A stretch of 64,000 bases of DNA. It comes from a virus. Position numbers and translations under genes: made by a program. This document shows, piece after piece, positions 17,154 through 52,925 of this stretch (position 1 is its first letter; every line of letters starts with the position of its first letter). The notes beneath the pieces were generated by a model, which was not told the DNA's origin, searched no databases, and saw nothing but the letters and a program-made list of their open reading frames with translations. The stretch is taken from the IMG/VR virus record IMGVR_UViG_2643221865_000002, one strand, 5' to 3'.

Positions 17154-17190
17154 TGTTGTACAGGACGTACACGACGATTAGGATCGAGTC

Positions 17191-23728: not shown

Positions 23729-23764
23729 CTTGTGGCCTTTCAAACTTCTTCGGTTCTCCGTGAA

Positions 23765-28051: not shown

Positions 28052-28684
28052 CTACGAGCCTGCTTTCTGTTCGTCGTACTGGGCGATGACCGTGACGATC
28101 CCCCACAGTGCCCACAGGAATCGGTGGGTGTAGACGGTGAAGTCGTTCTCCCAGACGTCGTAGAACCGGCAGTCTCCGAACTGGAACTGGTCGATGGCGC
28201 GTCGGAGTTCGGAGTCGTCGTCGGCGTAGCAGGCGAGCTCCTGCGCGACAGCGTCTTGGAGATCCTGCTTCCAGGCGTCGTCGGCGTCTGCGTTCTCGTC
28301 GAGCCAGTCGGTGACGGTGTCGTCGAGGAACTCCATGACGGCGTCGACTGAGTGCTCCTTGAAGTCGGAACTGGCTGTCATCTTCTCGCCCCAGTAGTGC
28401 GGGTTGATGCCGCGCTTGCCGCGGAAGAACTCGAACATGTCGTCGAGGCGTTCGAAGACGTAGGTGCCGGTGTCGCCGTACACGGTGAGGGCGCCGGGTG
28501 TGGTGATCACGTTGAACGAACCCCAGCCGGTGCCGGGCGCGCCGTAGTACAGGTGCCGGTACACGCCGTCGTCGCGGACGATGGTGAGCCGGTGGTTCTT
28601 CGTGTCGTCGAGGAAGGCTTCGCGAACTTTCAGATCGCGGGCGGCTGCGGTGCTGAGGGTCGGCTCAGCTGTGGTGGCGGTCAT
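28052..28684 (-). CDS. hypothetical acidic protein
   Basis: 210 aa of clean coding. ATGA-type overlap with the upstream gene. Confidence 0.6.
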   Translation of the reverse strand: MTATTAEPTLSTAAARDLKVREAFLDDTKNHRLTIVRDDGVYRHLYYGAPGTGWGSFNVITTPGALTVYGDTGTYVFERLDDMFEFFRGKRGINPHYWGEKMTASSDFKEHSVDAVMEFLDDTVTDWLDENADADDAWKQDLQDAVAQELACYADDDSELRRAIDQFQFGDCRFYDVWENDFTVYTHRFLWALWGIVTVIAQYDEQKAGS

Positions 28685-29155: not shown

Positions 29156-29656
29156 TCAGAACAGGTCGACGAACGCCCCGGCGGCCATGATGAGCCCCCG
29201 GTACCGGCGCTGGAACGTCTCCTCGTCCCGGAGTTTCCTCTCCGACGTGGCGAGGTACTGCTCGTCACGAATGACCCAGTCCTCCACTTTCTCCACCCAT
29301 GCTTCGGCTCGGTCGAGTGCGTTGAACCGGTCTGTGATGTTGGTGCGGTCGTTGGCGTACCAGCCGATGAAAACGGATCCGACGGCGGCGACGAGGATGC
29401 CGAGCCCGACGTAGCTGATCGGGAGGACATGCACGAGGATCAGGACGAGTAGTGCGATGAACGCACCGAAGATCGCAACGCCGAGGATCAGCTTCCAGGT
29501 TCCGGGCTTGCCGGGGTTCTCGGCGTATTCGGCTGCGGCGTCGCGTTCGCGGATCGCCGACTTCAGGTTCTGCTGGCTTTTTCGAAGGATCTCCTTGGCG
29601 ATGCCGACTGAATAGTGCAGATTGTCGAGCTTCCGCTGGCTGTACCAGGTGTTCAT
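29156..29656 (-). CDS. 2-TM membrane protein
   Basis: 166 aa with two adjacent TM helices flanked by charged regions. Confidence 0.6.
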   Translation of the reverse strand: MNTWYSQRKLDNLHYSVGIAKEILRKSQQNLKSAIRERDAAAEYAENPGKPGTWKLILGVAIFGAFIALLVLILVHVLPISYVGLGILVAAVGSVFIGWYANDRTNITDRFNALDRAEAWVEKVEDWVIRDEQYLATSERKLRDEETFQRRYRGLIMAAGAFVDLF

Positions 29657-30186
29657 GCGTGTGATCCTGTCGGGTTGGTGAGCGCTGCGATCGACGCTTC
29701 GGACAGGTCACCGTCGGTGATGCGGCGCCGGAACGCTGCCTGGAACTCTGCCTCTGCGACCTCTTCCGCGTGGGCGGCGCTCAGGGCGCGGGCTGCCACC
29801 TCATACTCGGCGTTGAGGGCAGCCACTCGTCCTTCGTAGTGGGTGATGTCATCGGCGATCTTGGGGTGTCGACCGAGATCTCCGATGAGGTCCAGGATGG
29901 CGAGGAGCGCATCGATCAGGAAGATGACGGTGAAGACGATCCCGAGGATGCGACCCAGCTGGCTGAGCCCGCCGAGCATGTCGAAGCCGGCGAGGATGCC
30001 GATGACGCCGAACACCAGCAGGCCGACGACAGAAATCGTTGCTCGGATCACGCGGGGACGCGCGTACCGCCAGGCGGTCATCTGCTGCTGACGACGGAGG
30101 GTGGTCAGGGTCGCCTCCACAGAGTTGACCTGGTAGCCGGTGGTGTTGAGTCGCCTCTGGTGCGACTTGATCAGTTCGGAGTTCAT
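29653..30186 (-). CDS. membrane protein (2-3 TM)
   Basis: ATGA overlap with the downstream gene. Confidence 0.6.
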   Translation of the reverse strand: MNSELIKSHQRRLNTTGYQVNSVEATLTTLRRQQQMTAWRYARPRVIRATISVVGLLVFGVIGILAGFDMLGGLSQLGRILGIVFTVIFLIDALLAILDLIGDLGRHPKIADDITHYEGRVAALNAEYEVAARALSAAHAEEVAEAEFQAAFRRRITDGDLSEASIAALTNPTGSHA

Positions 30187-30200
30187 GCTGTCCTTCCGGG

Positions 30201-30947
30201 TTACGCGGCGGCCGGCTGGGTGACGGCGAGGTTCGACTGGGCCAGCCGGTTCGCGGTGAGGATGCGGCGCATCTCAGCCGCGTCGCTGGTGAGCAGCGTC
30301 TTGAAGTTCGGAGTGAAGAGCCCGACCCCGGCCACGGCGATGACTGCGATGCCTGCTTGGCCGAGCAGTCCGAGGTTTCCACCGGCCTGACTTGCGAAGA
30401 TGGTGCCGCCGACGGCGAACACGGCCGACCCGAACAGCAGGAACGTGTTGCCAGCGATGGTTCGGGTGACGACTTTCGCTTGACGCTTTGCGTGGGCGGC
30501 TTCGTATAGCCAGATGCCGCGGAGGATCTCCATGTCGCCGGATCGGTTCACGTCGGGTGCGAGTTCAGCGAGGGCAGCATCTGCTCTCGCCGCAGCGTCC
30601 TGGTACTCGGCGACGCTGGCGTCGAAATCTCCGCGGTGCCGAGCGTTGACGACCAGGGTGTGGACGCTGCGGATCACAGCGACGATGAGTGCGACGGCGG
30701 CGACGGAGCCGAACAGTAGGACCGCTGTGGCGGCGGCATGTTCCGGTTCGGTGACCTCTCCCCGGCCGCCAGCTGTGACAAGCCACGCCTGAGTGGCGCC
30801 GTACAAGGCGACGAACCCGGCGACGAGAAGGACCGTGAAGGTGGTCTCCCAAGGCCGTGACGCGTAGGTGGCTGCTCGGTTCATGTCTCGCTCTGCGGCT
30901 CTGGCTTCCTTGCGCAGGTCGAGGGCGATTCGGTACTTCTCAATCAT
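30201..30947 (-). CDS. membrane protein (about 5 TM)
   Basis: 248 aa with RBS GGAGA. A degenerate motif copy (TCCGCACAACCACC) lies upstream. Confidence 0.6.
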   Translation of the reverse strand: MIEKYRIALDLRKEARAAERDMNRAATYASRPWETTFTVLLVAGFVALYGATQAWLVTAGGRGEVTEPEHAAATAVLLFGSVAAVALIVAVIRSVHTLVVNARHRGDFDASVAEYQDAAARADAALAELAPDVNRSGDMEILRGIWLYEAAHAKRQAKVVTRTIAGNTFLLFGSAVFAVGGTIFASQAGGNLGLLGQAGIAVIAVAGVGLFTPNFKTLLTSDAAEMRRILTANRLAQSNLAVTQPAAA

Positions 30948-31088
30948 GGTGTCTCCGTATCTCAGGTCAGATGGTGGTTGTGCGGATGTGCTCGTGCAGG
31001 ATCTCGCGGAACTTCAGTTCTTCAGCGGCTTCGTCTTCGGCTCGGGTGCGTGCAGCCTCCGAGGTGCGTCTGAGCCAGCCCAGCAGTG

Positions 31089-31757
31089 TCACGAGCTCAC
31101 AGTGACAGCGGCGTATGACTTGTGCGCTGCCCGGAGCTGGGCGATGACGTCTTCCGACCAGTTGTGCTTCGCGGCGACCTCGTCGAAGTCGGTGTGGCCG
31201 TGGACGATCGCGTACAGGCGGGCGTCGGCGTCGTCGGCGGTCCAGTCCCGGTCGGTGGTGTCGACGACGGTGCTGATGGACCCGATCACCTTGGGGAGCT
31301 GGTTGACGGTCTGGATGAACTGGGCCCGCTCCACTTGACGGGCAAGCGCTCCATCCAGGAGCTCCTGGTACTCCTCGCGGTAGTCAGCCCACCGCGAGGC
31401 GGAATTGTCGCTGTCAGCGGCTTCCCTCTTCCAAGAGAAGAGGTCGTGGACGCGTGAGCACACCACCAGGAAGAAGACGCCTGCGGCGATGGCTGCCAGC
31501 ACCCCGAGAGGTCCCACCCGGTCGCCGAGGTCCTTCGGGACGGAGAACCCGAACCAGAGCAGAGCCGCGGCGAGCAGCGCCAGCCCGACCGCCCAGGTGA
31601 GGGGCTTCCAGATGTGAGCGAACGGGTGCGCAGCCCCGATCCGGCGCCACTCGGCGGCTTCCTTCTCCGCTGCCCTGATCCTGAACTCGCAGGTGGAGAT
31701 CGAGCTGCGGTGCGAGTGGACGTCGCGGTCCACGTTGTCGTTCCAGAGGGAGTTCAA
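31089..31757 (-). CDS. membrane protein (TTG start after RBS GAAGGA)
   Basis: The ORF-track GTG start lies inside the motif. The TTG at 31755-31757, with a 6-nt spacer after the RBS, is preferred. Confidence 0.5.
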   Translation of the reverse strand: MNSLWNDNVDRDVHSHRSSISTCEFRIRAAEKEAAEWRRIGAAHPFAHIWKPLTWAVGLALLAAALLWFGFSVPKDLGDRVGPLGVLAAIAAGVFFLVVCSRVHDLFSWKREAADSDNSASRWADYREEYQELLDGALARQVERAQFIQTVNQLPKVIGSISTVVDTTDRDWTADDADARLYAIVHGHTDFDEVAAKHNWSEDVIAQLRAAHKSYAAVTVSS

Positions 31758-31790: not shown

Positions 31791-31809
31791 CACTCACATG
31801 TGCGGACTG
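31791..31809 (-). promoter_or_regulatory. conserved motif copy preceded by CTAAACC
   Basis: Upstream of 31089..31757. Confidence 0.55.
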
Positions 31810-31851: not shown

Positions 31852-32598
31852 TCAGACCTGTTCGATCTTCCCGCCGCGGCTGGCGTGCCACAGTGCGACG
31901 TACCACCAGGAGAGGACCATGAAGATGAGGGTGACGATCGGTACCCATCCGCCTTCGCGGTGCATCGGCATCATGTCGAAGATCAGGGACAGCAGCCCCC
32001 AGATTGCGAGGACGCCGCCGAGGAAGAAGGCGGGAACGGCGAGGATCATCCGGTTGTTGTTCCAGCCGGCGAACGGGACGGCGATGACTCCGATCCAGAC
32101 AATCATCTGGGCGATTGACGAGCCGGCCATCAACGCGTCCCGGGTGGCGTCCTGGACCGGGTTCAGCAGCAGTTGGTAGTAGTACAGTCCGGCGCTGGAC
32201 AGGATGCCGGCGAAGAAGAACGCGGCGGCGATCGTCAGGTCGCGGGCTGACCCGGGTGGGAAGTTCCGCTGCTTCCACGAGGGGCGGGTGGCCGCCGGCA
32301 CCTGCTGCGAGGCCTGAGGTGCAGACTGCGCCGGCTGGTAACTGGGTGCCGAGGTGCGATCCGGGACGGGCTGACCTGTACGAGCTCGGCGGGCGAGACC
32401 GCGGTCGTACACCTTCCGGGCGTCCACGTCCCGCAGGATCGTGTACGCCTCGTTCACCTTCTGGCTCATCGTCGCACCGGCCTCACCGGCGCGGTCCGGG
32501 TGGTAGTGCCGGATCAAGGTGCGGTACGCGTCGACGATCTCACCATCGGTGGCGGTGTCGGCGACGCCCAGCGTCTCGTAATGGGTTGCTGCACTCAT
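31852..32598 (-). CDS. J-domain (DnaJ-like) membrane protein, 4 TM
   Basis: YETLGVADTATDGEIVDAYRTLIRHYHPDRAG...KVNEAYTILRD is a J-domain with an HPD motif. It is followed by four TM helices. Confidence 0.75.
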   Translation of the reverse strand: MSAATHYETLGVADTATDGEIVDAYRTLIRHYHPDRAGEAGATMSQKVNEAYTILRDVDARKVYDRGLARRARTGQPVPDRTSAPSYQPAQSAPQASQQVPAATRPSWKQRNFPPGSARDLTIAAAFFFAGILSSAGLYYYQLLLNPVQDATRDALMAGSSIAQMIVWIGVIAVPFAGWNNNRMILAVPAFFLGGVLAIWGLLSLIFDMMPMHREGGWVPIVTLIFMVLSWWYVALWHASRGGKIEQV

Positions 32599-32647
32599 TA
32601 GGCTTCCTTCCGGTCCGGATTGTTCCGCACTTGCGGGGTGGGCAGGA

Positions 32648-33745
32648 TTAGCGGCCGGCTCGGGCTTCGGTCTTCTTCCAGTCGTTGGCGGTACCGGCTG
32701 CGACCTTCAGGAGCACCTGACCGTCTTCTGCCAAGACGAGGATCTCGTCGGTTGATGCTTTGGCCTCGCCGGGGAAGCGGAATCGATCGCCGGTGGACCA
32801 GTGCTCGACAACGTCGACCTTTCCGAAGTCACGGCACTTCACAACCTTGTAGGGGCCGTAGCCTCCACCGGTGCTGCCGAGGCGGAGTGCGTTTGCGAAC
32901 TCCCAGCTGCCGACAACACGGTGACGAGCAGTGTGGTAGCTGAGAGCTGCCATGCTCACGAGGAACCAGACGACAAGTGCAGCGAACACCAGGTGATACG
33001 CGCCTCCACCGAGACCCCACGCCCCGAACACGCCGGTGAACCAGATAAACCCGTAAACGAGGACGCCGCCGGCGCCGACGAGGACGGCGAACATCTGCAG
33101 ACAGCTGCTCATCCGCGTCCCGACGACGAACGCCATCGGGAGAATGAACACGGAAGACCAGGCGGCGAAGCCGGCGGCGTTGTGCCAGGACTCACCGATC
33201 TCGTCCGCGGGCAGGAGAAGGAAGAGGCCCCACGCGGCTGCGACCCCGGCAACGGCGAGGATGATCGAGATCAGGAGTCCCGGGATCCCGCGGGCAGGAA
33301 GGATGCCAGCGAGCAGCGACGGCTTCGGTCCGGCATCCGGGTAGATGGTGCCGGCACGCTTGACAGCCCACGGGTAGATGGGCTTCTCCGGCTCCGGGGC
33401 CGGCTTCGGCTTCTCCTGCTTCGGTGGCGACTGCTGGTAGTTGGGCTGCTCGTATCGGGGCTGCTCGTACCGCGGCTGCTCACGCTCCTGCTCGCGCTGC
33501 TGCTGCTCGTAACGCTCGTTCTCTTCCGCGATGACGAGCTTCCCGTCGTACTCTCGACGGCGGGCGTCATCTCGCAGGATGTCGTATGCGTGGTTTACCT
33601 TCGCGGCCATCGCTGCGCCGCCGGGGCCGGCGATGTCGGGGTGGTAGATCTTCACCAGTCGTTTGTATGACCTGATGATGTCCTCGGTGGACGCGTCGGC
33701 GGTGACGCCGAGGACGGTGTAGTGGGTCATCGTGTCAGTGGGCAA
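32648..33745 (-). CDS. J-domain membrane protein (HPD motif) with C-terminal small beta-rich domain
   Basis: HYTVLGVTADASTEDIIRSYKRLVKIYHPDIAG. A Q/E-rich linker is followed by TM helices. Start is TTG (MPTDTM) or the ATG 15 nt later. Confidence 0.75.
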   Translation of the reverse strand: MPTDTMTHYTVLGVTADASTEDIIRSYKRLVKIYHPDIAGPGGAAMAAKVNHAYDILRDDARRREYDGKLVIAEENERYEQQQREQEREQPRYEQPRYEQPNYQQSPPKQEKPKPAPEPEKPIYPWAVKRAGTIYPDAGPKPSLLAGILPARGIPGLLISIILAVAGVAAAWGLFLLLPADEIGESWHNAAGFAAWSSVFILPMAFVVGTRMSSCLQMFAVLVGAGGVLVYGFIWFTGVFGAWGLGGGAYHLVFAALVVWFLVSMAALSYHTARHRVVGSWEFANALRLGSTGGGYGPYKVVKCRDFGKVDVVEHWSTGDRFRFPGEAKASTDEILVLAEDGQVLLKVAAGTANDWKKTEARAGR

Positions 33746-33863
33746 AGCGTTCCTCCAGAGCGGTGCGGATCGATACGTTACGGCCGGTTCAGGTCCGGGG
33801 TGATGCGATGGTTCGGCGAGTGTGTCCGTAAGCCCCGGAATGGGGTGGGTCCTGCTTCGTCGT

Positions 33864-33880
33864 CACCTTCATGTGCGGCG
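33864..33880 (-). promoter_or_regulatory. conserved motif copy (CCGCACATGAAGGTGAC)
   Basis: 120 nt upstream of J-domain gene 32648..33745. Confidence 0.5.
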
Positions 33881-33957
33881 CAGCCGAAGAATGTCCCTGA
33901 ACACAGAAAGAGCCGGACGCCTGCGCAATGCAGACATCCGGCTCAGGCCGCCTGTTT

Positions 33958-35646
33958 CTAGCGGGCTTCTGCTTCGTCCTCGGTGACACCAGCAGCGAAG
34001 TCGTAGATCCAGGCGATGTTCTTCGCGTCGAGGTGGCGCATCGCACGGGTGACGGCGACGTACATGAGGCGCGCCTCCTCCGCCTTCAACGGCTTGAACT
34101 CGCCGGTCTCCTTGTCGATCTTCGGGTAGGGGAAGTCAGCGCCGATGCGGACGTGGCGCCACTCGAGCCCCTTCGACACGTGGGCGGTGGAGATGCTGAT
34201 GTCAGCCTGGTCAGCGGGGACGCAGGAGTCGATCGCGGCGATCACGTCGACGGCGCCGACCCGGACGATGGTGTTGATCATCGAGGCCAGGTTGGTGTTC
34301 TCGTCTGCGTCCTCGGAGGCGACGGAGTCGAGGACGTCCTGCCACTTCCGAAACCCGGCGAAGTCGGGGTGGCTGGTCCACCCGTTCTTGTCCAGGTCGA
34401 TCGCAGCCTGGGCGATGGAGCGGAGCTCGGCAGCCTTCTTCTCACCGGCGATGTTGACGTTCAGGCCCTGCTTCAGGAAGAAGAGCACTTCGTTCATCGC
34501 GCCACCGTTTGTGCGACAAATCACGGCATCCGGACGTCGGTCGGAGTGGCGGTCGGTGTGCACGGAGGCGCGCTTGCCCTCGGTTCCGCGAACACGGAGA
34601 TCCGCGCCGAGGGTCTCCAGGAACACGTTGGCGAAGTCGGCGATCTCCTCACCGAAACGGAACGACTGAGTGAGGGCGATCTTCTCCCCCTCGAACCCGT
34701 CGAGGGCGTCGACCGCGCCACGCCATTTGTAGATCGCCTGGTGCCGGTCGCCGACGACGATGACCTGTGCACCCTTCTGGGCGAGGACGACGCTGGTGGT
34801 GACAGGGTCGGAGTCCTGCGCCTCGTCGTACATGATGTAGTCGAACGGCAGCTGCGGCTTGGACAGCGCCCACATCTTCAGGTAGTGGGAGTGGGTGACG
34901 GGGAGCACACCGCTGGCCATGCGAACCTCGGCGTACGGGTCGGCGGGGATCTCGAACCCGTTCTCGTCGTACTCGACGACGACACCGCCGCCGTCGACGA
35001 CCAGCAGGTCCTGCCAGTAGATCTTCGCCCAGCGGACGACCTCGTCGATCAGCTGCTGGGTGGCGTTGTCCTCGACCTCCTCGGCATTGGCGAGCTGGAC
35101 GACGTCGTTGCCGATGATCGCCTTCGCCTTGTCGGACACCGAGAACAGGAATCGGGCGGGCAGCTGAACGTGCTGACGGCCGATCTCCTCATCCGCTGTG
35201 GTGCAGAACCGGTTGACGGTGTCGATAACGATCTTCATGGCAGAGTTCGCGGCGACCTTGTGGACCATCTTGTAGCCGGGGATGTCGATGCGGTCCATCT
35301 CCAGCGCCTTGGCGCTGTCGGTGGCGTTGAGTCGCTTGTCCAGGCGTCCTCGGCGGGGTGCGCCGTGGGTGGCGTAGGCGAGCGAGTGAGCGGTGCGGGC
35401 GTCCACGTTGGTGCCCTTGAACTTCTCCGCTGCTTCCAGTGCGATCGCGCGGTTGAACGCCAGGTAGAGGCCGCGACGCTCGGGGCGTCGGCGGGCGATC
35501 ATCTGCAGGGTGGTGGTCTTGCCTGTGCCTGCGAGGGCGATGATGACGAAGTTCTCGTTCGTGTCGGCCAGGTCCAGAGCGATCTGCTGCTCGGGGGTGG
35601 GCTGACGCTCTCCGGTGAGAAGCGGCGCGGGTGCGGTGATGGTCAT
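33958..35646 (-). CDS. UvrD/Rep/PcrA-like superfamily I DNA helicase
   Basis: Walker A LAGTGKTT, motif II IMYDEAQD, motif III VGDRHQAIYKWRGA, motif V STAHVSKGLEW and motif VI VAVTRA. The ATG is 8 nt after a motif copy; the ORF-track GTG start lies inside the motif. Confidence 0.8.
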   Translation of the reverse strand: MTITAPAPLLTGERQPTPEQQIALDLADTNENFVIIALAGTGKTTTLQMIARRRPERRGLYLAFNRAIALEAAEKFKGTNVDARTAHSLAYATHGAPRRGRLDKRLNATDSAKALEMDRIDIPGYKMVHKVAANSAMKIVIDTVNRFCTTADEEIGRQHVQLPARFLFSVSDKAKAIIGNDVVQLANAEEVEDNATQQLIDEVVRWAKIYWQDLLVVDGGGVVVEYDENGFEIPADPYAEVRMASGVLPVTHSHYLKMWALSKPQLPFDYIMYDEAQDSDPVTTSVVLAQKGAQVIVVGDRHQAIYKWRGAVDALDGFEGEKIALTQSFRFGEEIADFANVFLETLGADLRVRGTEGKRASVHTDRHSDRRPDAVICRTNGGAMNEVLFFLKQGLNVNIAGEKKAAELRSIAQAAIDLDKNGWTSHPDFAGFRKWQDVLDSVASEDADENTNLASMINTIVRVGAVDVIAAIDSCVPADQADISISTAHVSKGLEWRHVRIGADFPYPKIDKETGEFKPLKAEEARLMYVAVTRAMRHLDAKNIAWIYDFAAGVTEDEAEAR

Positions 35647-35650
35647 AAAC

Positions 35651-35664
35651 ACCACATGTGCGGA
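35651..35664 (-). promoter_or_regulatory. conserved motif copy, N8 before helicase ATG, preceded by CGAAACC
   Basis: Sequence match. Confidence 0.55.
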
Positions 35665-35683
35665 TCGCTCGGGTTTCGCGGCC

Positions 35684-36682
35684 TCAGCGTGCTCGGAAAA
35701 GATCCTTCAGTTCCGACCAGGTGACCGTCGCTGTCGCTGGGACAGAGGAGAGCACTTTCCCGAACTTGTTCAGCAGCACCCACATTCCGGGTTCCACCTT
35801 GGCCATGATCATCTTCAGGTTGAAGCGAGCGCCGTTCTCGGGATGCTCGGCGAGCCAGTAGTCGCCGCCGGCGTGTTCGAGAACCTTCCACGGCCCGGTC
35901 CCGTCCCGAACACCTTCGAACATCAGCCGTTCCAGCTTCTGAGCGTCGGTGGCTCGGGCCCGGTACAGCGACCATCGCCACCCGAACAGGTACCCGGCTG
36001 CGAGGAGGGCCCCTTCCACGGGGATGACCCAGGCGGCGCTGCTCAGGTAGAACGCTCCGAACAGCAGGGACAGCGGGACTGTGACCCAGGCGACGACGTA
36101 GATGGCCAGCGCAGCGTACCGGGTGATGAGGCCGAGCCATCCGCGTCCGGCCAGAAGGATCGCCGGCGCCCCGAACACCCACATGTAGCAAGCCCAGGCG
36201 GTTGCGGAGATGTACGCGTCCCGACGGAAGTCAAGGTCGGTGTCGACGGCGGATTCGTACCAGCGGAAACCCCATGCGAAGATGCCGGCCACGGCGACGA
36301 AGGCGACTGCTGCGAGGAAGTACTTCCCGGATCCGGGCGGGACCAGGCGGACGCGAAGCGGGAGCCGCCGCCAGGTGCCGGTCATGTCCGGGCGCGGCGC
36401 CGGCGCCGCAGGTTGGGGTGCCTGTTCCGGGCGTGGTTCAGGCGCGGCGCTCGTGGTGCTGGATGCGGGACCCTGCACACGGTCACGGTCGTAGAGACGT
36501 CTGGTGTCGGGGTCGCGAAGCACCGCGTACGCTTCGTTGAGCTTCTGGGACATCGAAGCGCCCGTCGTGCCGGCGCGGTCGGGGTGGTAGTGCCGGATCA
36601 GGGACCGGTACGCCTTCCCGATTGTGTCGTCGTCGGCGTCCTCGGGGATCCCGAGGAGTTCGTAGTGTGTGGTTGCGCTCAT
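35684..36682 (-). CDS. J-domain membrane protein (HPD motif), multi-TM, C-terminal small domain
   Basis: HYELLGIPEDADDDTIGKAYRSLIRHYHPDRAG. Confidence 0.75.
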   Translation of the reverse strand: MSATTHYELLGIPEDADDDTIGKAYRSLIRHYHPDRAGTTGASMSQKLNEAYAVLRDPDTRRLYDRDRVQGPASSTTSAAPEPRPEQAPQPAAPAPRPDMTGTWRRLPLRVRLVPPGSGKYFLAAVAFVAVAGIFAWGFRWYESAVDTDLDFRRDAYISATAWACYMWVFGAPAILLAGRGWLGLITRYAALAIYVVAWVTVPLSLLFGAFYLSSAAWVIPVEGALLAAGYLFGWRWSLYRARATDAQKLERLMFEGVRDGTGPWKVLEHAGGDYWLAEHPENGARFNLKMIMAKVEPGMWVLLNKFGKVLSSVPATATVTWSELKDLFRAR

Positions 36683-36694
36683 CCGGAGGAAACC

Positions 36695-37819
36695 TTATCT
36701 CGCGGGCGTGTCCTCTGCAGAATCCCGGCGTTTCCGGGTGCCTGCATTCTCTTCACGTCGGCGGTTGTTCACCCATGCTGTGGAGCTGCGGCCGGGTGCG
36801 GTCGCGACGATCACTGCTTCGCTGTTCAGCACCACCCACGTGTTCCTTTGAGCTCTCCCCCACGTGTCGATGCTGAACTCGCGGCCGTCGGTGGATTGCA
36901 CCAACGCGGAGGTTCCGTCGATCGCTGTGACGAGGAACGGCCCTCCGTTTTCTGCTGCGGCAGCGGAGGCTTTCAGCAGCTCCCATCGGTGCACCAGACC
37001 GCGGTCGGTCGAGAGGGCCCTCCACGATCTGATGCCAGCGCCGGCGAGGAACCATCCGGCGACCGCGGCGATGGTGGCAGCCGCGGCGGAGGGGGAGACG
37101 ACGTCGATCACCCCGACCAGTGAGAGGACGGCGCCGGCGACAGGCGCGAGTTGGGCGAGGGCTGCCCACAGCTTCAACCGCCGTTGTGCGGCGCCGATGA
37201 TTCCGATGATCGCAGCGAGCACGACCAAGGTGGTGTCATCCGGTGCGGGGAGGGTCGCAACGAACACGGATGAGCCGAGAATGACGGTTGCTGCTCCCGC
37301 GAGCACGTATCCCCTGTTCGCCCATCCGGCTGGGAAGAGTCGCTGGGTGCGGGTCGGAGGTTCAGGCATCTGAGGTGCCGCAGGTTCTGCTGCGACCGGT
37401 CGGTGCAGTGGGATGGGGGCCCACGCCGGCTGGGCTGGGCCTGTCAGCTGGGGTTCAGCGGCGGCCGGCTGACGCGACAGAGGGATCGTCGACCATGGCG
37501 ACGAAGGGCGTGGGGTTGTCTCGGCTGCGGCGTCGGTTCGATCCAACCGCCATTCCGGTGCGACCTTCACAGCGGGCGCGTGATTCGCCGGCGGTTCGAC
37601 CGACTCGACAGGCGCAGCGTTCGCCTGTGCGGGGAGGATCTTCGAGTCGTAGTCGTGGCGGCGTTCTGAGTTGCTGAGGACGTCGTAAGCGAACTCGACC
37701 ATGCGGGCATGCTCGTCTTCGCGGAACCCGCCCTGGCGCAGCAGGTCGCGCGCAGCGGTCAGGTCCGCGGCGGTGGCGTCACGGTGGACGCCGAGGATGT
37801 CGTACAGGGTCTCAGCCAT
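36695..37819 (-). CDS. degenerate J-like domain membrane protein (HPD lost)
   Basis: The N-terminus LYDILGVHRDATAADLTAARDLLRQ is J-like but lacks HPD. It has a Pro/Ala-rich linker, 4 TM and a C-terminal domain. RBS GAAAGG. Confidence 0.6.
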   Translation of the reverse strand: MAETLYDILGVHRDATAADLTAARDLLRQGGFREDEHARMVEFAYDVLSNSERRHDYDSKILPAQANAAPVESVEPPANHAPAVKVAPEWRLDRTDAAAETTPRPSSPWSTIPLSRQPAAAEPQLTGPAQPAWAPIPLHRPVAAEPAAPQMPEPPTRTQRLFPAGWANRGYVLAGAATVILGSSVFVATLPAPDDTTLVVLAAIIGIIGAAQRRLKLWAALAQLAPVAGAVLSLVGVIDVVSPSAAAATIAAVAGWFLAGAGIRSWRALSTDRGLVHRWELLKASAAAAENGGPFLVTAIDGTSALVQSTDGREFSIDTWGRAQRNTWVVLNSEAVIVATAPGRSSTAWVNNRRREENAGTRKRRDSAEDTPAR

Positions 37820-37846: not shown

Positions 37847-38503
37847 TCACGCGTTCGTGAAGTAGGTCCCTGTGACGGCGATGTCAGCCTCGGCGACCAC
37901 GTCGGCGACGTCAGCGACGCTGAGGATCACCTCAGCGAAAGCCAGGTGACCTGCTCCGGTGCGGCGGCCGGGGACGAGACGCGGTGCGGGCTGCCGCACT
38001 GCAGAGGAGTCCTCCTTCAGCTCGGTCAGCGACAGTCCACTCACCGGGCTGTACAGCAGGGCTGCGTACGCTTCAGCGTTGCTGTGGGCGAGCATGACAG
38101 CGTCGGCTCGGGCGACGCCGAGCGCGGCAGCAGCCACCACTGCGGAAGCGTGCGGAGTCAGGGTTGCCTCGACGACGGTGACGTCGTCCGAGTCGAACAC
38201 CCCGTTCTCCTCCAGCCAGCGCACGGCGGCTTCGATGTCAGCGGTCTCCACGTTCAGGGTGACGTCAGCGGTCCAAGTGCGGCCGAACTCCTCACGGAAC
38301 TTCGGGTCGGACAGCACCGGAGCGCGAACCAGCGAAGGCACGGACAGGGCGTCGTCGGTGAGGGAGTCGATGAAACCTCCCAGCTCCGCCTCGAGCTCCA
38401 GCTCGGACGGGCGCCCCGGGAAGCTCAGCCCGATCTGCAACGTCCACCGGTCGGCGTCGACGGTTGTGCGAGCGGAAGCGGAAACGATGATGTTGGTGCT
38501 CAT
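37847..38503 (-). CDS. hypothetical protein (possibly SIMPL/DUF541-like)
   Basis: Internal ATG 38501-38503 with RBS GGAGAA. The ORF-track N-terminal 48 aa are junk. Confidence 0.5.
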   Translation of the reverse strand: MSTNIIVSASARTTVDADRWTLQIGLSFPGRPSELELEAELGGFIDSLTDDALSVPSLVRAPVLSDPKFREEFGRTWTADVTLNVETADIEAAVRWLEENGVFDSDDVTVVEATLTPHASAVVAAAALGVARADAVMLAHSNAEAYAALLYSPVSGLSLTELKEDSSAVRQPAPRLVPGRRTGAGHLAFAEVILSVADVADVVAEADIAVTGTYFTNA

Positions 38504-38641: not shown

Positions 38642-39562
38642 ATGCACGACTCCGCCGACCCCACGCTCACCCTCCAGCAGGAGACCGGACGACCTTCAGA
38701 CAGGTTGGTCCGGTGGCTGCTGTGGCCGGTCGCGCTCACCCTCGTCGTCATCATCGCGAACGCGTTCGTGATCTCGTTCCAGTCCCAGGTTGACCTGGCG
38801 ATCCTCGCCCGCATCCACAAGGACGTCGCCTTCGGCTGGCCGATCATCGTGGACGGCACCATCGTCGTGTCCACGTTCGCGGCGTTCATGCTGCACCGCC
38901 ACGGCGTCCGGGTGTCCTGGTACCCGTGGGCGATCCTGATCCTGTTCGGGGCCGTGTCCATTTGGGCGAACGGCATCCACGCCACCGGAGCGGACGTGTC
39001 CCTGCCGGAGCTGTTCCTCGTCGGCGCCGTCCCCGCGGTCGGCATCCTGCTGTCCGTCCACCTGTTCGTGATCGTCATCGCACACCACAACCGGCCCGAC
39101 CCGGTCCGGCCGCAGAAGGCGTCACCCGCCGCCGAGCTGCCTGCCGCGGCCGCTCCGGCGCACCGCGCCCCGCAGGCTGTCGTCACCGACGCAGCATTCA
39201 CAGACGCGGCCGTCACTGAGCTTCCCAAACCTCCCCGTCCAGTCGCCGTGGAGCTGCCTGCCGCGCCGGCGCCGGAACTGGCTGCCAGCAACGCACACCC
39301 AACCTGGGTGCCCGAGACGGTCCTCCCGAAAGCTGCACCGTCTCCGCAGCCTGCCTCGAAGCCGGCTCCGAAGGAGACGAAGAAGGCTGCAGCCCCTCGC
39401 ACCACCACGAAGCCGATGACCCGCGCTGAAGCTGGCGCGAAAGTCCGGGAGCTCGAAACCGCAGGGACCCAGGTCACCGCGGATGACATCAGCTCCTGGA
39501 TGAACGTGTCACCGGCTCGTGCCGCAACGATCCTCACTCAGATCCGGCAGGAAGCCGTCTGA
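38642..39562 (+). CDS. 4-TM membrane protein with Pro/Ala-rich linker and C-terminal HTH-like domain
   Basis: RBS GGAGGAGG. A sense-orientation motif copy is spaced exactly 8 nt before the ATG. The C-terminal segment RAEAGAKVRELETAGTQVTADDISSWMNVSPARAATIL is HTH-like. Confidence 0.65.
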   Translation: MHDSADPTLTLQQETGRPSDRLVRWLLWPVALTLVVIIANAFVISFQSQVDLAILARIHKDVAFGWPIIVDGTIVVSTFAAFMLHRHGVRVSWYPWAILILFGAVSIWANGIHATGADVSLPELFLVGAVPAVGILLSVHLFVIVIAHHNRPDPVRPQKASPAAELPAAAAPAHRAPQAVVTDAAFTDAAVTELPKPPRPVAVELPAAPAPELAASNAHPTWVPETVLPKAAPSPQPASKPAPKETKKAAAPRTTTKPMTRAEAGAKVRELETAGTQVTADDISSWMNVSPARAATILTQIRQEAV

Positions 39563-39606: not shown

Positions 39607-40485
39607 TTGTCAGATCCCCGCACCACACCTGCACACCAGAAGACCTCGTCGTACCACCCGACCGGAGGCTGGAACGAGAAACGAACACACTCGGACGGCC
39701 ACTCCTACTGGCGTGACGGGAAGCTGCACCGGGAGGACGGCTACGCCGTCGACCGCCGCAGCAACCGGCAGGTGTGGATCGGCGGGAAGCTGATCCCCGC
39801 ACCGGAGACGAAGCAGGATGTTCGGCTGACCTTCACCGGTGTCACGAAAGCCGGGTACCTCCACTGGGAGGACCAGGACGGCATGATCCGCGTCCGGGCC
39901 CACCTGAACGCCCGCAACGCCTACGAGATGCGCTACTTCGACGTCGAAGGTGAGCCGGAGCCGCACTGGGCCGGCGGATACACCCTCGTCGTCCACTACG
40001 ACGACGGTGAGCGACGCTACTTCCGTCAGGACTACGACCACGGCGTCCCGAAGCTGCACCGGCTCGACGGGCCAGCCATCCAGCTTCCCGTCACCACCAG
40101 GAACCACGCCGCGAAGTCGAAATGGCTGGAAGACGGGCAACGAGTTGACGGCCCTGTCGAGCTGTTCATCCGTCACCGGATGAAGATGAAGGCGCAGCCG
40201 GATGACTGGTCGCCGCCGGTGATCACGGACCGTGAAGCTGCCCGACTCCGCGCTGTGGTGATCGCCGACCCGGAGTCGCCGATCGCACTGGATGTGGCGT
40301 TCACCTACTCGAACGAGTACTCAGAAGCGATCTGCCACATCGATGGGCTCCCCGCCCCGCAGCATCACAGTGTCGCCGATGAAGCCGCCGCCTGGCTGGC
40401 CGCCCTCACCGGAGAAGACGACGATGACACAGCGGGCGATGAGTTCATCACCGGCCCGGACGACACGGACGAAACCGGGAACTGA
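39607..40485 (+). CDS. hypothetical protein (TTG start)
   Basis: 292 aa of clean coding with RBS GAAGGG. Confidence 0.55.
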   Translation: MSDPRTTPAHQKTSSYHPTGGWNEKRTHSDGHSYWRDGKLHREDGYAVDRRSNRQVWIGGKLIPAPETKQDVRLTFTGVTKAGYLHWEDQDGMIRVRAHLNARNAYEMRYFDVEGEPEPHWAGGYTLVVHYDDGERRYFRQDYDHGVPKLHRLDGPAIQLPVTTRNHAAKSKWLEDGQRVDGPVELFIRHRMKMKAQPDDWSPPVITDREAARLRAVVIADPESPIALDVAFTYSNEYSEAICHIDGLPAPQHHSVADEAAAWLAALTGEDDDDTAGDEFITGPDDTDETGN

Positions 40486-42301: not shown

Positions 42302-43744
42302 CTACTCGGCCGTGTTGCCGACCTTCACGTCGATGGACGCGGGAAGCTCCACCTTCGGGAGGGTGACGGTGGCGGCTGCGGAGTGACCGGCAGCCTTGCC
42401 GGCTGCGGTTCCGCCGATGACGGAGCCGAGCAGGTCCTTCAGGCCGATGCCCATGGTGGAGGACAGCATCGAGTCGACCTCGGTCATGCCGGACACGACG
42501 TTCTTCGCCAGCTGACCGGCGCCGTCGGTGGAGATGACGGTGAGGTTGTCGATGTTGGACATCGGAGCGGCGAGCTCACGGGCGATCAGCGGGAGCGCCT
42601 CGATGACCTTCAGCTGGAGCAGCGCCTCGGACTGCTGGGCGACAGCCTCAGCTGCAGCCTTCGTCGACTCGGCCTCAGCCTGACCCTTCGCGTAGATGGC
42701 CTTCGCCTCAGCCTCACCCTCAGCCTCAAGGGCTGCAGCGGCAGCCATGCGGGAGTCGCGCTCAGCGTGGGCGGCGATGAGGTTCTCGTCAGCCTTCGCC
42801 TGGGCGATCTTCGTCACACGGTACGCCTCAGCGTCAGCGACGGCGCGGACCTCGGACTCCAGCTCAGCGGCACGCAGCGAAGCGCGCTTTTGGGCGGTGA
42901 TCTCCTGCTGGGCGACGACGGCCTGCTGCGACTGCGCCTCGGCGAGCGGGCGAGCGGCTGCAGCCTCAGCGGCAGCCTTGTCGGTTGCCTTCTGCAGGTC
43001 AGCCTTGCGGAGAGCGAGGGCGTTCTCAGCCTCGGCGATGGACTGCTCAGCGGAGACGGCAGCCTCGCGGGCCTCCTTCTTCGCGATCGACTCGGCGATC
43101 TCGGCGGTCTTGCGGACCTTCGCCTGCTCGGCGCGGCCGAGGTCCTCGATGTAGCCGTTGTTGTCGCTGATGCCCTTGATCTCGAACGAGTCGACGTCCA
43201 GGCCCTGGTTCTCCAGCGACTGGCGGGCGATGTCGAGCACCGCAGCGGACAGCTCGTCACGCTTCGTGATGATGGTGAGGACGTCGGTGGCGCCGACGGA
43301 CGAGCGAAGCGAACCGGACAGCACCTCCAGGGCGAACCCGTCGATGTTCTTGTCCTGGCCGAGGAAGCGCTGCGCGGCGGCGCGGATCGCGGTCTCGGTG
43401 GATCCGACCTTGACGATGGCGACAGCGTCGACGTTCATCGTGATGCCGTTGTTCGTCTGAGCTACCGCCTGGATGTCGATCGCGCGGGAGCGGAGGGAGA
43501 TCTTGTGCGCCTTCTGGAAGAACGGCATGATCCAGACGCCCTGGCCGTGGACGACACGCTGGCCGGACTGCTCCGCCTCGATGCCGTTGACGAGCTTGCG
43601 CTTGGAGCGCTTGCCGGTGACGACGATCGCCTCGTCGGGCGAGACGTTGCGGTACAGGACCTTGGCGTAGATGAAGATGATGACGCCGATGACGACAAGG
43701 GCGAAGATGATGCCGAAAGCGGGGCCGAACAGGAAGTCGAGCAA
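42302..43744 (-). CDS. flotillin-like SPFH/band-7 protein
   Basis: N-terminal TM, SPFH domain and a long Ala/Glu-rich coiled coil. TTG start with RBS AAAGGAGAA. Confidence 0.75.
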   Translation of the reverse strand: MLDFLFGPAFGIIFALVVIGVIIFIYAKVLYRNVSPDEAIVVTGKRSKRKLVNGIEAEQSGQRVVHGQGVWIMPFFQKAHKISLRSRAIDIQAVAQTNNGITMNVDAVAIVKVGSTETAIRAAAQRFLGQDKNIDGFALEVLSGSLRSSVGATDVLTIITKRDELSAAVLDIARQSLENQGLDVDSFEIKGISDNNGYIEDLGRAEQAKVRKTAEIAESIAKKEAREAAVSAEQSIAEAENALALRKADLQKATDKAAAEAAAARPLAEAQSQQAVVAQQEITAQKRASLRAAELESEVRAVADAEAYRVTKIAQAKADENLIAAHAERDSRMAAAAALEAEGEAEAKAIYAKGQAEAESTKAAAEAVAQQSEALLQLKVIEALPLIARELAAPMSNIDNLTVISTDGAGQLAKNVVSGMTEVDSMLSSTMGIGLKDLLGSVIGGTAAGKAAGHSAAATVTLPKVELPASIDVKVGNTAE

Positions 43745-47280: not shown

Positions 47281-47284
47281 GACA

Positions 47285-47299
47285 CCTACATGTGCGGAC
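47285..47299 (-). promoter_or_regulatory. conserved motif copy, N8 before macro gene ATG
   Basis: Sequence match. Confidence 0.55.
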
Positions 47300-47361
47300 A
47301 ACCTCGGATCCGGCCGGTCGACATCGATACGAGGTTCGCCATCCTGGAACCGAGGAACCGT

Positions 47362-52897: not shown

Positions 52898-52925
52898 CGA
52901 CAGTCCTTTCTCGAGGTGCGCCTCC

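What the first reader, a model, noticed from the sequence alone, without database searches (positions are those of the whole stretch)
31852..37819. Tandem array of four J-domain multi-TM membrane proteins interrupted by a UvrD-like helicase
Genes 36695..37819, 35684..36682, 32648..33745 and 31852..32598 each start with a DnaJ-type J-domain. Three have HPD (HPDRAG, HPDIAG, HPDRAG) and one is degenerate. Each has a low-complexity linker, 2-5 TM helices and, in three of them, a small C-terminal beta-rich domain. A complete SF1 helicase (33958..35646) lies between them. The array is followed by four more membrane-protein genes (29156..31757). J-domains recruit Hsp70 to specific sites or substrates. 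Four membrane-tethered paralogs in one operon-like run on an accessory element is unusual. It suggests a chaperone-recruiting membrane complex, for example for DNA or protein translocation, or for hijacking host DnaK.
Basis: partly seen in the sequence, partly recalled or inferred. Interest (0 to 1): 0.7.

Follow-up and report, generated by a model that had tools for sequence, protein, structure and literature searches.

The report
Membrane-anchored J-proteins flanking a helicase
A mobile-element region of a leaf-dwelling Leifsonia carries four diverged copies of a rare membrane-anchored Hsp70 co-chaperone around a DNA helicase, and since one or two such genes sit just upstream of this helicase in all seven related elements examined, these elements probably recruit the host chaperone DnaK to the membrane for a still unknown purpose.

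Summary

The helicase does not interrupt the array; it is the conserved partner. Seven related elements (Agromyces genomes and metagenome contigs; helicase 50-71% identical) share one module: DUF2637 protein and a 292-aa partner, divergent from a SIMPL-like gene, then one or two J-TM-OB genes, then the SF1 helicase, usually with a DarB-like antirestriction giant nearby. Only this Leifsonia has four copies.

A strong terminator follows the helicase. J3, J4 and the four membrane genes therefore form a second, lineage-specific unit. The paralogs are old (22-41% identity). The TM+OB module has only about a dozen relatives among 1.84 billion representative proteins. No Hsp70 is encoded nearby.

Best reading: these are class C J-proteins that recruit host DnaK to the membrane. 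The client is unknown, perhaps the helicase-linked DNA-processing machinery. It is a new variant of a known kind, of moderate interest.

The parts
39607..40485 (+). Conserved 292-aa protein of unknown function, downstream of the DUF2637 gene. It belongs to the divergent arm of the module.
   Evidence: 40-48% identical orthologs sit in the same position in L007, L009, L010, L174, L175 and L176. No Pfam or PHROG hit.
38642..39562 (+). DUF2637 membrane protein. Its homologs in phages are annotated as excisionase. It is transcribed divergently from the J-helicase unit.
   Evidence: Pfam PF10935 E 5e-11. phrog_733 'excisionase' E 5e-18. 40-46% identical orthologs lie in the same divergent position in six related loci.
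37847..38503 (-). Gene X, the first gene of unit 1. It is probably a cytoplasmic SIMPL/DUF541-like protein.
   Evidence: Positional orthologs lie upstream of the J gene in L006, L007, L009, L010, L174, L175 and L176 (alignment A8). The L175 ortholog has a precomputed PF04402 SIMPL hit. The L006 ortholog scores E 3.9e-4. The window copy itself has no Pfam hit.
36695..37819 (-). J1: degenerate J-like domain without HPD, a 98-aa Pro/Ala linker, four TM helices, an OB-like barrel and a basic tail.
   Evidence: Pfam DnaJ 23.3 bits, below GA 27.8. Family J-HMM 28.3 bits. Alignment shows deletion of the HPD loop. 28% identity over its full length to the HPD-bearing first J of L007.
35684..36682 (-). 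J2: canonical J-domain (HPDRAG), a 44-aa linker, four TM helices, an OB-like barrel and a C-terminal helix.
   Evidence: Pfam DnaJ 65.4 bits. AlphaFold2: J-domain pLDDT about 90, disordered 72-116, helices 119-260, strands 265-314. NCBI names it 'J domain-containing protein', Leifsonia sp. Leaf264.
35653..35664 (-). Copy of the strand-specific motif TCCGCACATGTG in the gap between J2 and the helicase. It may be an internal promoter or operator.
   Evidence: Ten copies in the window, all on the minus strand, against 0.33 expected from shuffles. Each lies 5-35 nt upstream of a gene start.
33958..35655 (-). UvrD-like SF1 helicase (562 aa from the ATG at 35646). It is the conserved partner of the J genes.
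   Evidence: Pfam UvrD-helicase, AAA_19 and UvrD_C all above threshold. phrog_1967 E 3e-94. SF1 motifs are invariant in alignment A4. 50-71% identical orthologs lie downstream of J genes in seven elements.
33910..33944 (-). Terminator-like hairpin (15 pairs, 10 G-C) with a T-rich tail, 14 nt after the helicase stop. It marks the end of unit 1.
   Evidence: It is followed by a 212-nt gap before J3.
32648..33745 (-). J3: canonical J-domain (HPDIAG), a Gln/Glu/Pro-rich repeat linker, four (possibly five) TM helices and an OB-like barrel. It is the first gene of unit 2.
   Evidence: Pfam DnaJ 56.9 bits. The linker carries 15-nt tandem repeats at 33431-33515. The C-terminal domain aligns with the family.
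31852..32598 (-). J4: canonical J-domain (HPDRAG), a linker and four TM helices, with no C-terminal barrel.
   Evidence: Pfam DnaJ 59.0 bits. 40% identical to J2 over residues 1-179, which is its best match anywhere.
31089..31757 (-). M1: a protein with one TM hairpin and predicted soluble flanks. A copy of the TCCGCACATGTG motif lies upstream at 31795-31806.
   Evidence: Hydropathy. No Pfam, NCBIfam, PADLOC or PHROG family. No plasmid homolog. Motif.
30201..30947 (-). M2: a membrane protein with two TM hairpins.
   Evidence: Hydropathy. Only a sub-threshold 8xMP hit, 19.9 bits against GA 30. No plasmid homolog.
29653..30186 (-). M3: a membrane protein with one TM hairpin.
   Evidence: Hydropathy. 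Weak similarity to M1 (local alignment z 6.4 against shuffles).
29156..29656 (-). M4: a membrane protein with one TM hairpin. Its start overlaps the M3 stop.
   Evidence: Hydropathy. Coordinates.

Best explanation
J1-J4 belong to a rare family of class C (type III) J-domain proteins carried by large mobile elements of Microbacteriaceae.

Architecture: a cytoplasmic N-terminal J-domain, a flexible Pro-rich linker, a four-helix membrane anchor, and (except in J4) a cytoplasmic OB-like barrel.

Proposed mechanism: the anchor and barrel fix the protein, and whatever the barrel binds, at the inner face of the membrane. The J-domain on its long tether then triggers ATP hydrolysis in host DnaK, so that DnaK clamps and remodels that client.

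The ancestral unit is SIMPL-like gene, then one or two J genes, then an SF1 helicase. It is transcribed divergently from a DUF2637 membrane protein and lies in a backbone that also carries a DarB-like antirestriction protein. The most likely client is therefore part of the element's DNA-processing or establishment machinery around the helicase.

In Leifsonia the family grew to four copies by old duplications. J1 has lost HPD and may act as a J-like regulator or partner of J2. J3 and J4 sit in a second, lineage-specific unit with four small membrane proteins.

Shown: the domains, the predicted topology, the conserved synteny, and the absence of a local Hsp70.

Inferred: DnaK binding, the identity of the client, and any link to the helicase's activity.
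For: - J-domains above Pfam threshold with HPD in J2-J4. All nine J genes in the seven related elements keep HPD.
- No DnaJ C-terminal domain, zinc finger or G/F region was found, so these are class C.
- AlphaFold2 of J2 shows a confident J-domain, a disordered linker, four long helices, then a five-strand barrel and a helix.
- Basic clusters lie before TM1 and after TM4 (sequences). With an even TM count, this puts both ends in the cytoplasm.
- The gene order 292-aa gene and DUF2637, then X, J and helicase is conserved in L006, L007, L009, L010, L174, L175 and L176. Gaps between J and helicase are 19-102 nt where they are adjacent. The DUF2637 arm is not seen in L006, where the contig ends upstream.
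- Intergenic gaps are short in the window and a terminator follows the helicase.
- No DnaK or GrpE in the window or in related loci.
- Mobile-element context: DarB-like giant (phrog_10089, E 3e-291). Helicase relatives lie on actinobacterial plasmids next to FtsK/SpoIIIE, ArdC or MobF.
Against: - No experiment or interaction prediction links the J proteins to DnaK, to the helicase or to DNA.
- Insertions between J and helicase are tolerated (DHFR and small genes in L006, L176 and L010). This argues against tight coupling.
- The J proteins evolve much faster than the helicase (24-31% against 71% identity to the closest relative, L174). That fits a host-interaction or conflict role at least as well as a machinery role.
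- The helicase has its own upstream motif copy, so it may be transcribed independently.
- Helicase orthologs at or below 46% identity lack a nearby J gene, so the helicase does not need one.
Confidence: 0.5

Rival explanations
1. Host-manipulation factors with no mechanistic link to the helicase. The membrane J proteins would titrate or relocalise host DnaK soon after the element enters a cell. This could derepress the heat-shock regulon or blunt a DnaK-dependent host response, much as phage RB43 Rki acts through DnaK on sigma32. On this view, the synteny with the helicase only reflects a shared early or establishment operon.
For: - The J proteins are the fastest-evolving genes of the module (24-31% identity where the helicase is 71%). 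Copy number varies between 1, 2 and 4.
- Neighbouring genes are of the antirestriction or host-takeover kind (DarB-like; PARP and Macro).
- A phage-encoded J protein that acts on DnaK and sigma32 is documented (PMC3486835).
- Helicase orthologs work without J genes in most lineages.
Against: Simple titration would not need a conserved four-TM anchor and a conserved OB-like barrel. The position immediately upstream of the helicase is kept in 8 of 8 elements (window included) despite heavy rearrangement elsewhere.
Confidence: 0.2
2. Dedicated biogenesis or quality-control co-chaperones for the element's own membrane proteins. The J-TM proteins would recruit DnaK to help insert or assemble DUF2637, M1-M4, or pilus and transfer components.
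For: - The module always pairs with a DUF2637 membrane protein.
- In Leifsonia the extra copies J3 and J4 are followed directly by four hairpin membrane proteins.
- Hsp70 is known to assist membrane insertion of tail-anchored proteins (review PMC8215388).
Against: M1-M4 are absent from all related elements, so they cannot be the ancestral client. Nothing ties the barrel to membrane-protein recognition.
Confidence: 0.15
3. A defence, exclusion or abortive-infection module. A membrane sensor or effector with a J-domain would work with a GajB-like SF1 helicase against incoming phage or plasmid DNA.
For: The helicase matches PADLOC GajB profiles (best E 9e-18). The region is rich in conflict-type genes (HNH, PARP and Macro, DarB-like). 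The J proteins diverge rapidly.
Against: - The GajB matches are generic SF1 similarity. Most cover only part of the protein, and no GajA or other PADLOC component was found among the ten neighbouring proteins.
- The module occupies a fixed backbone position with conserved flanks in eight elements, not a variable defence island.
- None of the four J proteins matches any PADLOC model.
Confidence: 0.08
4. The extra copies are decaying duplicates with no separate function. Only one J gene would matter, and J1 (no HPD) and J4 (no barrel) would be on the way to loss.
For: Seven related elements manage with one or two copies. J1 lacks HPD and J4 lacks the barrel.
Against: All four ORFs are intact, with coding-type GC3 of 0.75-0.86, although the paralogs have diverged to 22-41% identity. 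Divergence that old without frameshifts or stops implies purifying selection. J-like proteins without HPD have known regulatory roles (Pam16, from general knowledge).
Confidence: 0.07

Closest known systems
DjlA, E. coli class C J-domain protein
   Same: A membrane-anchored J protein whose J-domain faces the cytoplasm and works with DnaK (review PMC8215388).
   Different: DjlA has one N-terminal TM helix and a C-terminal J-domain, and it is chromosomal. Here the J-domain is N-terminal, followed by four TM helices and an OB-like barrel. The NCBIfam DjlA model scores only 19-23 bits against a cut-off of 162, and only over the J-domain.
DjlB/DjlC (YbeS/YbeV), tail-anchored J proteins of E. coli
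   Same: N-terminal J-domain with a C-terminal membrane anchor. There are two paralogs close together on the chromosome (PMC8215388).
   Different: They have a single tail anchor and no barrel. They work with a dedicated Hsp70 (HscC) encoded nearby. No Hsp70 is encoded in this window or in related loci.
Rki (ORF 057w) of T4-like phage RB43
   Same: A J-domain protein encoded by a mobile genetic element that acts through host DnaK (PMC3486835).
   Different: Rki is described there as an ORFan J-domain protein, with no membrane anchor mentioned and no helicase linkage. No sequence relationship beyond the J-domain was tested or seen.
Pam18/Pam16 (Tim14/Tim16) and Sec63, the eukaryotic translocon J proteins
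   Same: Membrane-embedded J proteins that place Hsp70 at one membrane site. Pam16 is an HPD-less J-like partner of Pam18, which parallels the J1-J2 pair. This comparison rests on general knowledge, not on a test here.
   Different: They are eukaryotic organellar systems coupled to protein translocons. No translocon component was identified here, and L007 has two HPD-bearing copies rather than a J plus J-like pair.
Polyomavirus large T antigen, and the DnaK/DnaJ-dependent remodelling of lambda O-P-DnaB, P1 RepA and F RepE
   Same: A J-domain or DnaJ function is coupled to a replicative helicase or initiator of a mobile replicon (PMC8215388; large T antigen from general knowledge).
   Different: In large T antigen the J-domain is fused to an SF3 helicase. 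In lambda, P1 and F the host DnaJ is used. Here a separate, membrane-anchored J protein is encoded next to an SF1 helicase, and no replication role has been shown.
NfeD-like proteins
   Same: A multi-TM anchor followed by a small soluble OB-fold barrel (general knowledge). A flotillin gene lies 4.5 kb away in the window (42302-43744).

Membership tests
J-domain proteins (Pfam PF00226 DnaJ) | Profile match above the curated gathering score (27.8 bits) | tested here: met
   J2 65.4, J3 56.9 and J4 59.0 bits. J1 scores only 23.3 bits, so J1 alone does not meet this criterion.
J-domain proteins (Pfam PF00226 DnaJ) | HPD tripeptide between helices II and III, needed to stimulate Hsp70 ATPase | tested here: met
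   HPD at residue 33 (J2), 35 (J3) and 33 (J4). It is absent in J1 through a deletion of about 5 residues. J1 is a J-like protein, not a functional J-domain by this criterion.
J-domain proteins (Pfam PF00226 DnaJ) | Stimulates the ATPase of a partner Hsp70 | not testable with these tools
   This needs biochemistry. No Hsp70 or GrpE is encoded in the window or in related loci, so the partner would be host DnaK.
Class A/B J-domain proteins (DnaJ, CbpA) | G/F region, DnaJ C-terminal domain (PF01556), and in class A a zinc finger (PF00684) | tested here: not met
   Only the J-domain is matched. NCBIfam DnaJ and CbpA equivalogs score 30-58 bits against cut-offs of 338-619. By default the proteins are class C.
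DjlA | N-terminal TM helix with a C-terminal J-domain, and an equivalog-level match to NF006948 | tested here: not met
   The domain order is reversed. NF006948 scores 19-23 bits against a cut-off of 162.
OB-fold small beta-barrel (C-terminal domain of J1-J3) | Five-strand closed barrel with structural similarity to known OB domains | tested here: met
NfeD | Pfam NfeD match, or a structural match to NfeD C-terminal domains, with an SPFH partner in the operon | tested here: not met
   No Pfam hit at E up to 1. NfeD is not among the listed structural matches. The flotillin gene is 4.5 kb away, and no flotillin is annotated in the related loci.
UvrD/Rep/PcrA-type SF1 helicases | UvrD-helicase and UvrD_C domains with a Walker A motif, DEAQD, and motifs III, V and VI | tested here: met
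   PF00580 57.3 bits, PF13245 44.6 and PF13361 35.4, all above threshold. The motifs are invariant in alignment A4. It is not an ortholog of UvrD, PcrA, Rep or RecB: the equivalogs score 55 bits or less against cut-offs of 696-1168.
Gabija (GajA + GajB) | A GajB helicase together with an adjacent GajA ATPase-nuclease | tested here: not met
   GajB profiles match, mostly over part of the protein (best E 9e-18). None of the nine other neighbouring proteins scanned matches GajA.
SIMPL/DUF541 (gene X) | Pfam PF04402 match | tested here: inconclusive
   The window copy has no hit. The positional ortholog in L175 has a precomputed hit, and the one in L006 scores E 3.9e-4, below threshold. The orthologs align at 20-26% identity.
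Actinobacterial conjugative or plasmid-like mobile element (context) | Hallmark transfer or establishment genes, and relatives on plasmids | tested here: inconclusive
   For: DarB-like antirestriction protein, amidase/CHAP, closest plasmid-collection helicase relatives on Curtobacterium megaplasmids, and more distant helicase relatives next to FtsK/SpoIIIE, ArdC or MobF. Missing: no relaxase, FtsK/TraB, VirB4, integrase or replication initiator was found among the window proteins scanned (not every ORF was). The NCBI contig is 701 kb, and whether it is a plasmid or the chromosome is unknown.

The most novel reading that the evidence does not exclude
The J-4TM-OB proteins form a membrane platform that harnesses host Hsp70 as a motor or remodeller for DNA handling by the element. 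They might load or release the co-transcribed SF1 helicase, or hand over DNA-protein complexes at the membrane during entry, establishment or transfer. J1 would be an HPD-less regulator of J2, as Pam16 is of Pam18. That would be the first dedicated, element-encoded Hsp70-recruiting step in bacterial plasmid or ICE DNA processing.
Probability: 0.15. Interest if true: 0.8.

Novelty: new variant of a known kind. Interest (0 to 1): 0.45.

Why it matters
J-domain proteins decide where and on what Hsp70 acts. Class C members are very diverse and most have no known function. This family has a defined architecture (J-domain, tether, four TM helices, OB-like barrel) and is found so far only on mobile elements. 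It also has a conserved genomic partner, an SF1 helicase that is widespread on plasmids and phages and itself has no assigned role.

If the link is functional, some actinobacterial elements bring their own adaptor to direct the host's main chaperone to a membrane-proximal DNA-processing step. The only mobile-element precedents found here are the soluble phage protein Rki and the use of host DnaJ by lambda, P1 and F.

The Leifsonia locus offers a natural dissection set in one genome: an HPD-less copy, a barrel-less copy and two full copies. If instead these are host-manipulation factors, they would be a plasmid counterpart of Rki.

Tried and rejected
- **DNA similarity.** Megablast of 28-40 kb against the plasmid and phage collections found nothing.
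- **Plasmid J hits.** tblastn of J2 against plasmids matched only the J-domain. The top Rhodococcus and Nocardia hits are canonical dnaK-grpE-cbpA-cbpM-clpB operons and are unrelated.
- **Word-indexed protein searches.** J2 alone and the TM+OB alignment A3 were both swamped by J-domain or TM words, and recovered only self hits and P0031. The exhaustive HMMER search with the TM+OB profile found the family instead.
- **The search for related loci.** With A3 it failed for lack of a conserved stretch. It still served as a negative control for J linkage.
- The afdb50 fold library was not available.
- **PDB profile searches.** Profiles of the barrel and of gene X gave nothing significant.
- **Families rejected.** Gabija (no GajA). 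NfeD (no profile or fold match). DjlA (wrong order, far below cut-off).
- **Paralogy of M1-M4.** Only weak pairwise signals (M1-M3 z 6.4, M2N-M4 z 4.6) that TM composition could explain. M1 and M2 have no plasmid homologs.
- **TtrA lead.** The Streptomyces helicase relatives might be TtrA, the telomere-proximal conjugation helicase (PMC8743542). This was not tested because no TtrA sequence was available.
- **Literature.** Searches found nothing on this family or on DUF2637 function. Barriot et al. 2020 on bacterial and phage J proteins is not held.
- **Repeats.** No iterons or long inverted repeats were found in the module's intergenic regions.

Full report
**Source and observation**

The window comes from Leifsonia sp. 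Leaf264. J2 is 100% identical to an NCBI protein named 'J domain-containing protein', whose longest contig is 701 kb. The same locus is on a 123.5-kb Logan contig.

Pfam DnaJ scores are 65.4 bits (J2, 35684-36682), 56.9 (J3, 32648-33745) and 59.0 (J4, 31852-32598). All three carry HPD. J1 (36695-37819) scores 23.3 bits, below the gathering score of 27.8, and lacks HPD because of a short deletion. A J-domain HMM built from this family still recognises J1 at 28.3 bits, E 5e-7. NCBIfam models match only the J-domain and fall far below every equivalog cut-off. No DnaJ C-terminal domain or zinc finger is found, so the proteins are class C.

**Anatomy of the J proteins**

The linkers are 42-98 residues long and 17-23% proline. 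The J3 linker is a Gln/Glu/Pro-rich repeat encoded by 15-nt tandem repeats.

AlphaFold2 on a nine-sequence family alignment gives for J2:
- a confident J-domain (pLDDT about 90);
- a disordered segment, residues 72-116;
- four long helices, 119-260;
- five strands, 265-314, and a C-terminal helix (pLDDT 83-87).

Hydropathy agrees with four TM segments in each protein, though J3 could have five. Clusters of basic residues lie before TM1 and after TM4 (sequences). With an even number of TM helices, both the J-domain and the C-terminal domain should be cytoplasmic. This is an inference from the positive-inside rule.

**Rarity of the family**

A profile of the TM plus C-terminal module was searched exhaustively against 1.84 billion representative proteins. 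Apart from the four window proteins it found only five with full-length matches. Four of these have the same order of J-domain, linker, an FPPGS-like motif, four TM helices and a barrel with a 'TWVVLN' motif. The fifth starts 20 nt from the end of its 1.3-kb contig, so its N-terminus is probably missing.

**The helicase is the conserved partner**

The contexts of these proteins, and of the closest helicase homologs, show one recurring module. A roughly 290-aa gene and a DUF2637 gene lie on one strand. Divergent from them are gene X, one or two J genes and the UvrD-like helicase.

| Locus | Source | Helicase identity | J copies |
|---|---|---|---|
| L174 | Logan contig | 71% | 1 |
| L009 | metagenome contig | 59% | 1 |
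| L007 | 101-kb metagenome contig | 58% | 2 |
| L175 | 247-kb metagenome contig | 57% | 1 |
| L010 | 193-kb metagenome contig | 55% | 1 |
| L006 | Agromyces humi | 51% | 1 |
| L176 | Agromyces sp. | 50% | 1 |

The DUF2637 arm is present in six of the seven. In L006 the contig ends just upstream of gene X, so it cannot be seen there.

Where J and the helicase are adjacent, the gap is 19-102 nt. In L006 and L176 a DHFR gene and a small gene lie between them, and in L010 two small genes do. All nine J genes in these relatives keep HPD. A giant methyltransferase-helicase lies a few kb downstream in L006, L010, L175 and L176, and about 17 kb downstream in the window (12352-17349). In L175 and L176 it is 49-56% identical to the window protein. 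It is a DarB-like antirestriction protein (phrog_10089, E 3e-291).

The linkage is specific to this clade. Helicase orthologs at 46% (Agromyces subbeticus) and 41% (Microbacterium MAG) identity have no J gene within 10 kb. Among the 80 genome loci fetched with the helicase alignment, about 24 (mostly Streptomyces, plus Nocardia and Micromonospora) carry a full-length helicase at 34-38% identity, and none of these has a J gene. The only J hit in the set is in a Ginsengibacter MAG. Only 1 of 80 IMG/VR loci has a J gene, and that one is unrelated. Curtobacterium megaplasmid pS16 (helicase 42% identical) has a J-plus-TM protein without a barrel, 3.6 kb away on the other strand.

**Structure of the Leifsonia locus**

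- Unit 1 is X, J1, J2 and the helicase, with gaps of 27, 12 and about 30 nt.
- A 15-pair hairpin with a T-rich tail follows the helicase stop. A 212-nt gap comes next.
- Unit 2 is J3, J4, M1-M4 and two further genes.

The closest relative, L174, has He_PIG-domain proteins directly after its helicase and none of J3, J4 or M1-M4. The window's ortholog of the first of these (60% identical) sits about 13.5 kb upstream of the module, at 49223-51487. Unit 2 therefore occupies a rearranged, variable slot.

The paralogs are old. Full-length identity is 22-27%. J2 and J4 are the closest pair, 40% identical over 180 residues, and each matches the other better than any ortholog. J1 aligns over its full length with the HPD-bearing first J of L007 (28%). 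The J-helicase module is conserved. The four-copy state is unique. The duplications are not recent.

Between the window and L174, identity is 71% for the helicase, 48% for the 292-aa protein, 42% for DUF2637, 31% for gene X and 24-31% for the J proteins. The J genes are the fastest-evolving part of the module.

**What it most likely does**

Established knowledge says that a J-domain with HPD stimulates Hsp70 ATPase and so targets Hsp70 to whatever the rest of the protein binds (PMC8215388). No DnaK or GrpE is encoded in the window or in the related loci, so the partner would be host DnaK.

The conserved four-TM anchor and the barrel argue for a specific membrane-proximal client rather than general folding. 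The fixed position upstream of an SF1 helicase, in a backbone with a DUF2637 protein (phrog_733 'excisionase') and a DarB-like protein, makes a DNA-processing or establishment complex the best guess for that client. Precedents for Hsp70 acting on the replication machinery of mobile replicons are lambda O-P-DnaB, P1 RepA and F RepE.

Two weaker hints point the same way:
- Helicase homologs in Nocardia are fused to a DciA domain (DnaB-loader family) (P0107 and P0123).
- The J-linked helicases share a 23-residue insertion that the unlinked ones lack. This could simply be shared ancestry.

None of this shows an interaction. I put about 0.8 on 'functional membrane J proteins that engage host DnaK' and about 0.3 on 'the client is helicase-linked'. 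The rivals are host manipulation, membrane-protein biogenesis, defence, and decaying duplicates. They are listed separately with their evidence.

**Comparison with known systems**

The proteins work like membrane-tethered class C J proteins. They are not members of DjlA: the domain order is reversed and the score is far below cut-off. They are not DjlB/DjlC, which have a single tail anchor and a dedicated HscC. They are not NfeD, since neither profile nor fold matches.

The helicase is a UvrD-like SF1 helicase. It is not an ortholog of UvrD, PcrA, Rep or RecB, and it is not Gabija, because GajA is absent. Its family is common on plasmids: 1908 plasmid records match, 1236 of them typed as conjugative. 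It is also found in phages (phrog_1967; Acinetobacter and Arthrobacter phages).

Rki of phage RB43 is the documented mobile-element J protein (PMC3486835). The HPD-less J1 next to J2 recalls Pam16 and Pam18 (general knowledge, not tested here).

**Verdict**

This is a rare, undescribed architecture of a known protein kind, in a conserved module with a helicase, expanded uniquely in this genome. Its function is unproven. Interest is moderate.

Noticed in passing
window 8234, 12026, 20519, 29107, 31795, 35653, 41093, 47287, 51970, 57918 (12-mers, minus strand): The motif TCCGCACATG(T/A)N occurs 10 times, always on the coding (minus) strand, against 0.33 expected from shuffles. Each copy lies 5-35 nt upstream of a gene start, with a GAAnC-like box about 13-16 nt further upstream. 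It looks like an element-specific promoter (some transcripts would be leaderless) or an operator. It is not seen in this arrangement in the related loci (one isolated 9-mer match in L007).
   Followed up: partly
window 56583-57911 (-), 46828-47301 (-), 52424-53212 (-): A bacterial PARP-like protein (WGR, PARP regulatory and PARP catalytic domains, E 1e-25) sits on the same element as two Macro-domain paralogs that are 51% identical over 147 aa. Together they form an ADP-ribosylation writer-eraser set.
   Followed up: no
window 12352-17349 (-): A 1665-aa methyltransferase-helicase matches DarB-like antirestriction proteins (phrog_10089, E 3e-291). It is 49-56% identical to giants in L175 and L176, and similar giants lie in L006 and L010.
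   Followed up: partly
window 26141-27964 (-) and 20570-23743 (-): An RCC1-repeat protein and a BNR/Asp-box protein share a roughly 160-aa N-terminus (41% identity) that starts with a hydrophobic, pilin-like segment. The same N-terminus resembles a small protein next to a prepilin peptidase and type IV pilus genes on Curtobacterium megaplasmid pS16. These may be pilus-displayed adhesins.
   Followed up: partly
window 61091-63520 (+): An 809-aa protein made largely of collagen triple-helix repeats (Pfam Collagen, E 9e-100). It lies next to an amidase/CHAP cell-wall hydrolase at 59025-59771.
   Followed up: no
window 42302-43744 (-): A flotillin gene (SPFH/Band 7 plus Flot domains) lies 4.5 kb from the J genes. 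I considered it as an NfeD-type partner for the TM plus OB module, but no flotillin is annotated in the related loci.
   Followed up: yes
window 28052-28684 (-): A 210-aa protein at the end of unit 2 matches phrog_4657 strongly (E 3e-48). That family has no known function.
   Followed up: no
window 5829-5916 (-): ARAGORN calls an 88-nt tRNA-Val(GAC), but Rfam finds no tRNA at gathering threshold anywhere in the window. The call is probably a false positive.
   Followed up: yes
P0107 and P0123 (Nocardia homologs of the window helicase): Two Nocardia homologs of this SF1 helicase (36% identical) carry a DciA domain (PF05258, the family of the DnaB-helicase loader). This hints that the helicase family works at replication initiation or restart.
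   Followed up: no
window helicase residues 167-189 (562-aa numbering; about 35080-35148): A 23-residue insertion is present in all seven aligned J-linked helicases (window, L174, L007, L175, L010, L006, L176). It is absent from six unlinked orthologs and from pS16. It may be simple shared ancestry or a clade-specific interaction surface.
   Followed up: partly
L004 8989-10353 (Brachybacterium kimchii linear plasmid) and L001 4665-5375 (Curtobacterium pS16): Other Micrococcales plasmids also encode proteins with an N-terminal J-domain (with HPD), a linker and a multi-TM region, but with different C-termini. The Brachybacterium protein (454 aa) has a roughly 200-aa soluble C-terminal region of unknown family, and the Curtobacterium one has none. 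Membrane J proteins on plasmids may therefore be wider than the family described here.
   Followed up: partly
Streptomyces plasmid hits H33, H36, H40 and loci L012, L013: Streptomyces orthologs of the helicase (35-38% identical) often lie within a few kb of a record or contig end. On pSTS1 the ortholog is next to a MobF relaxase. They may correspond to the telomere-proximal conjugation helicase TtrA, but this was not tested for lack of a TtrA sequence.
   Followed up: no
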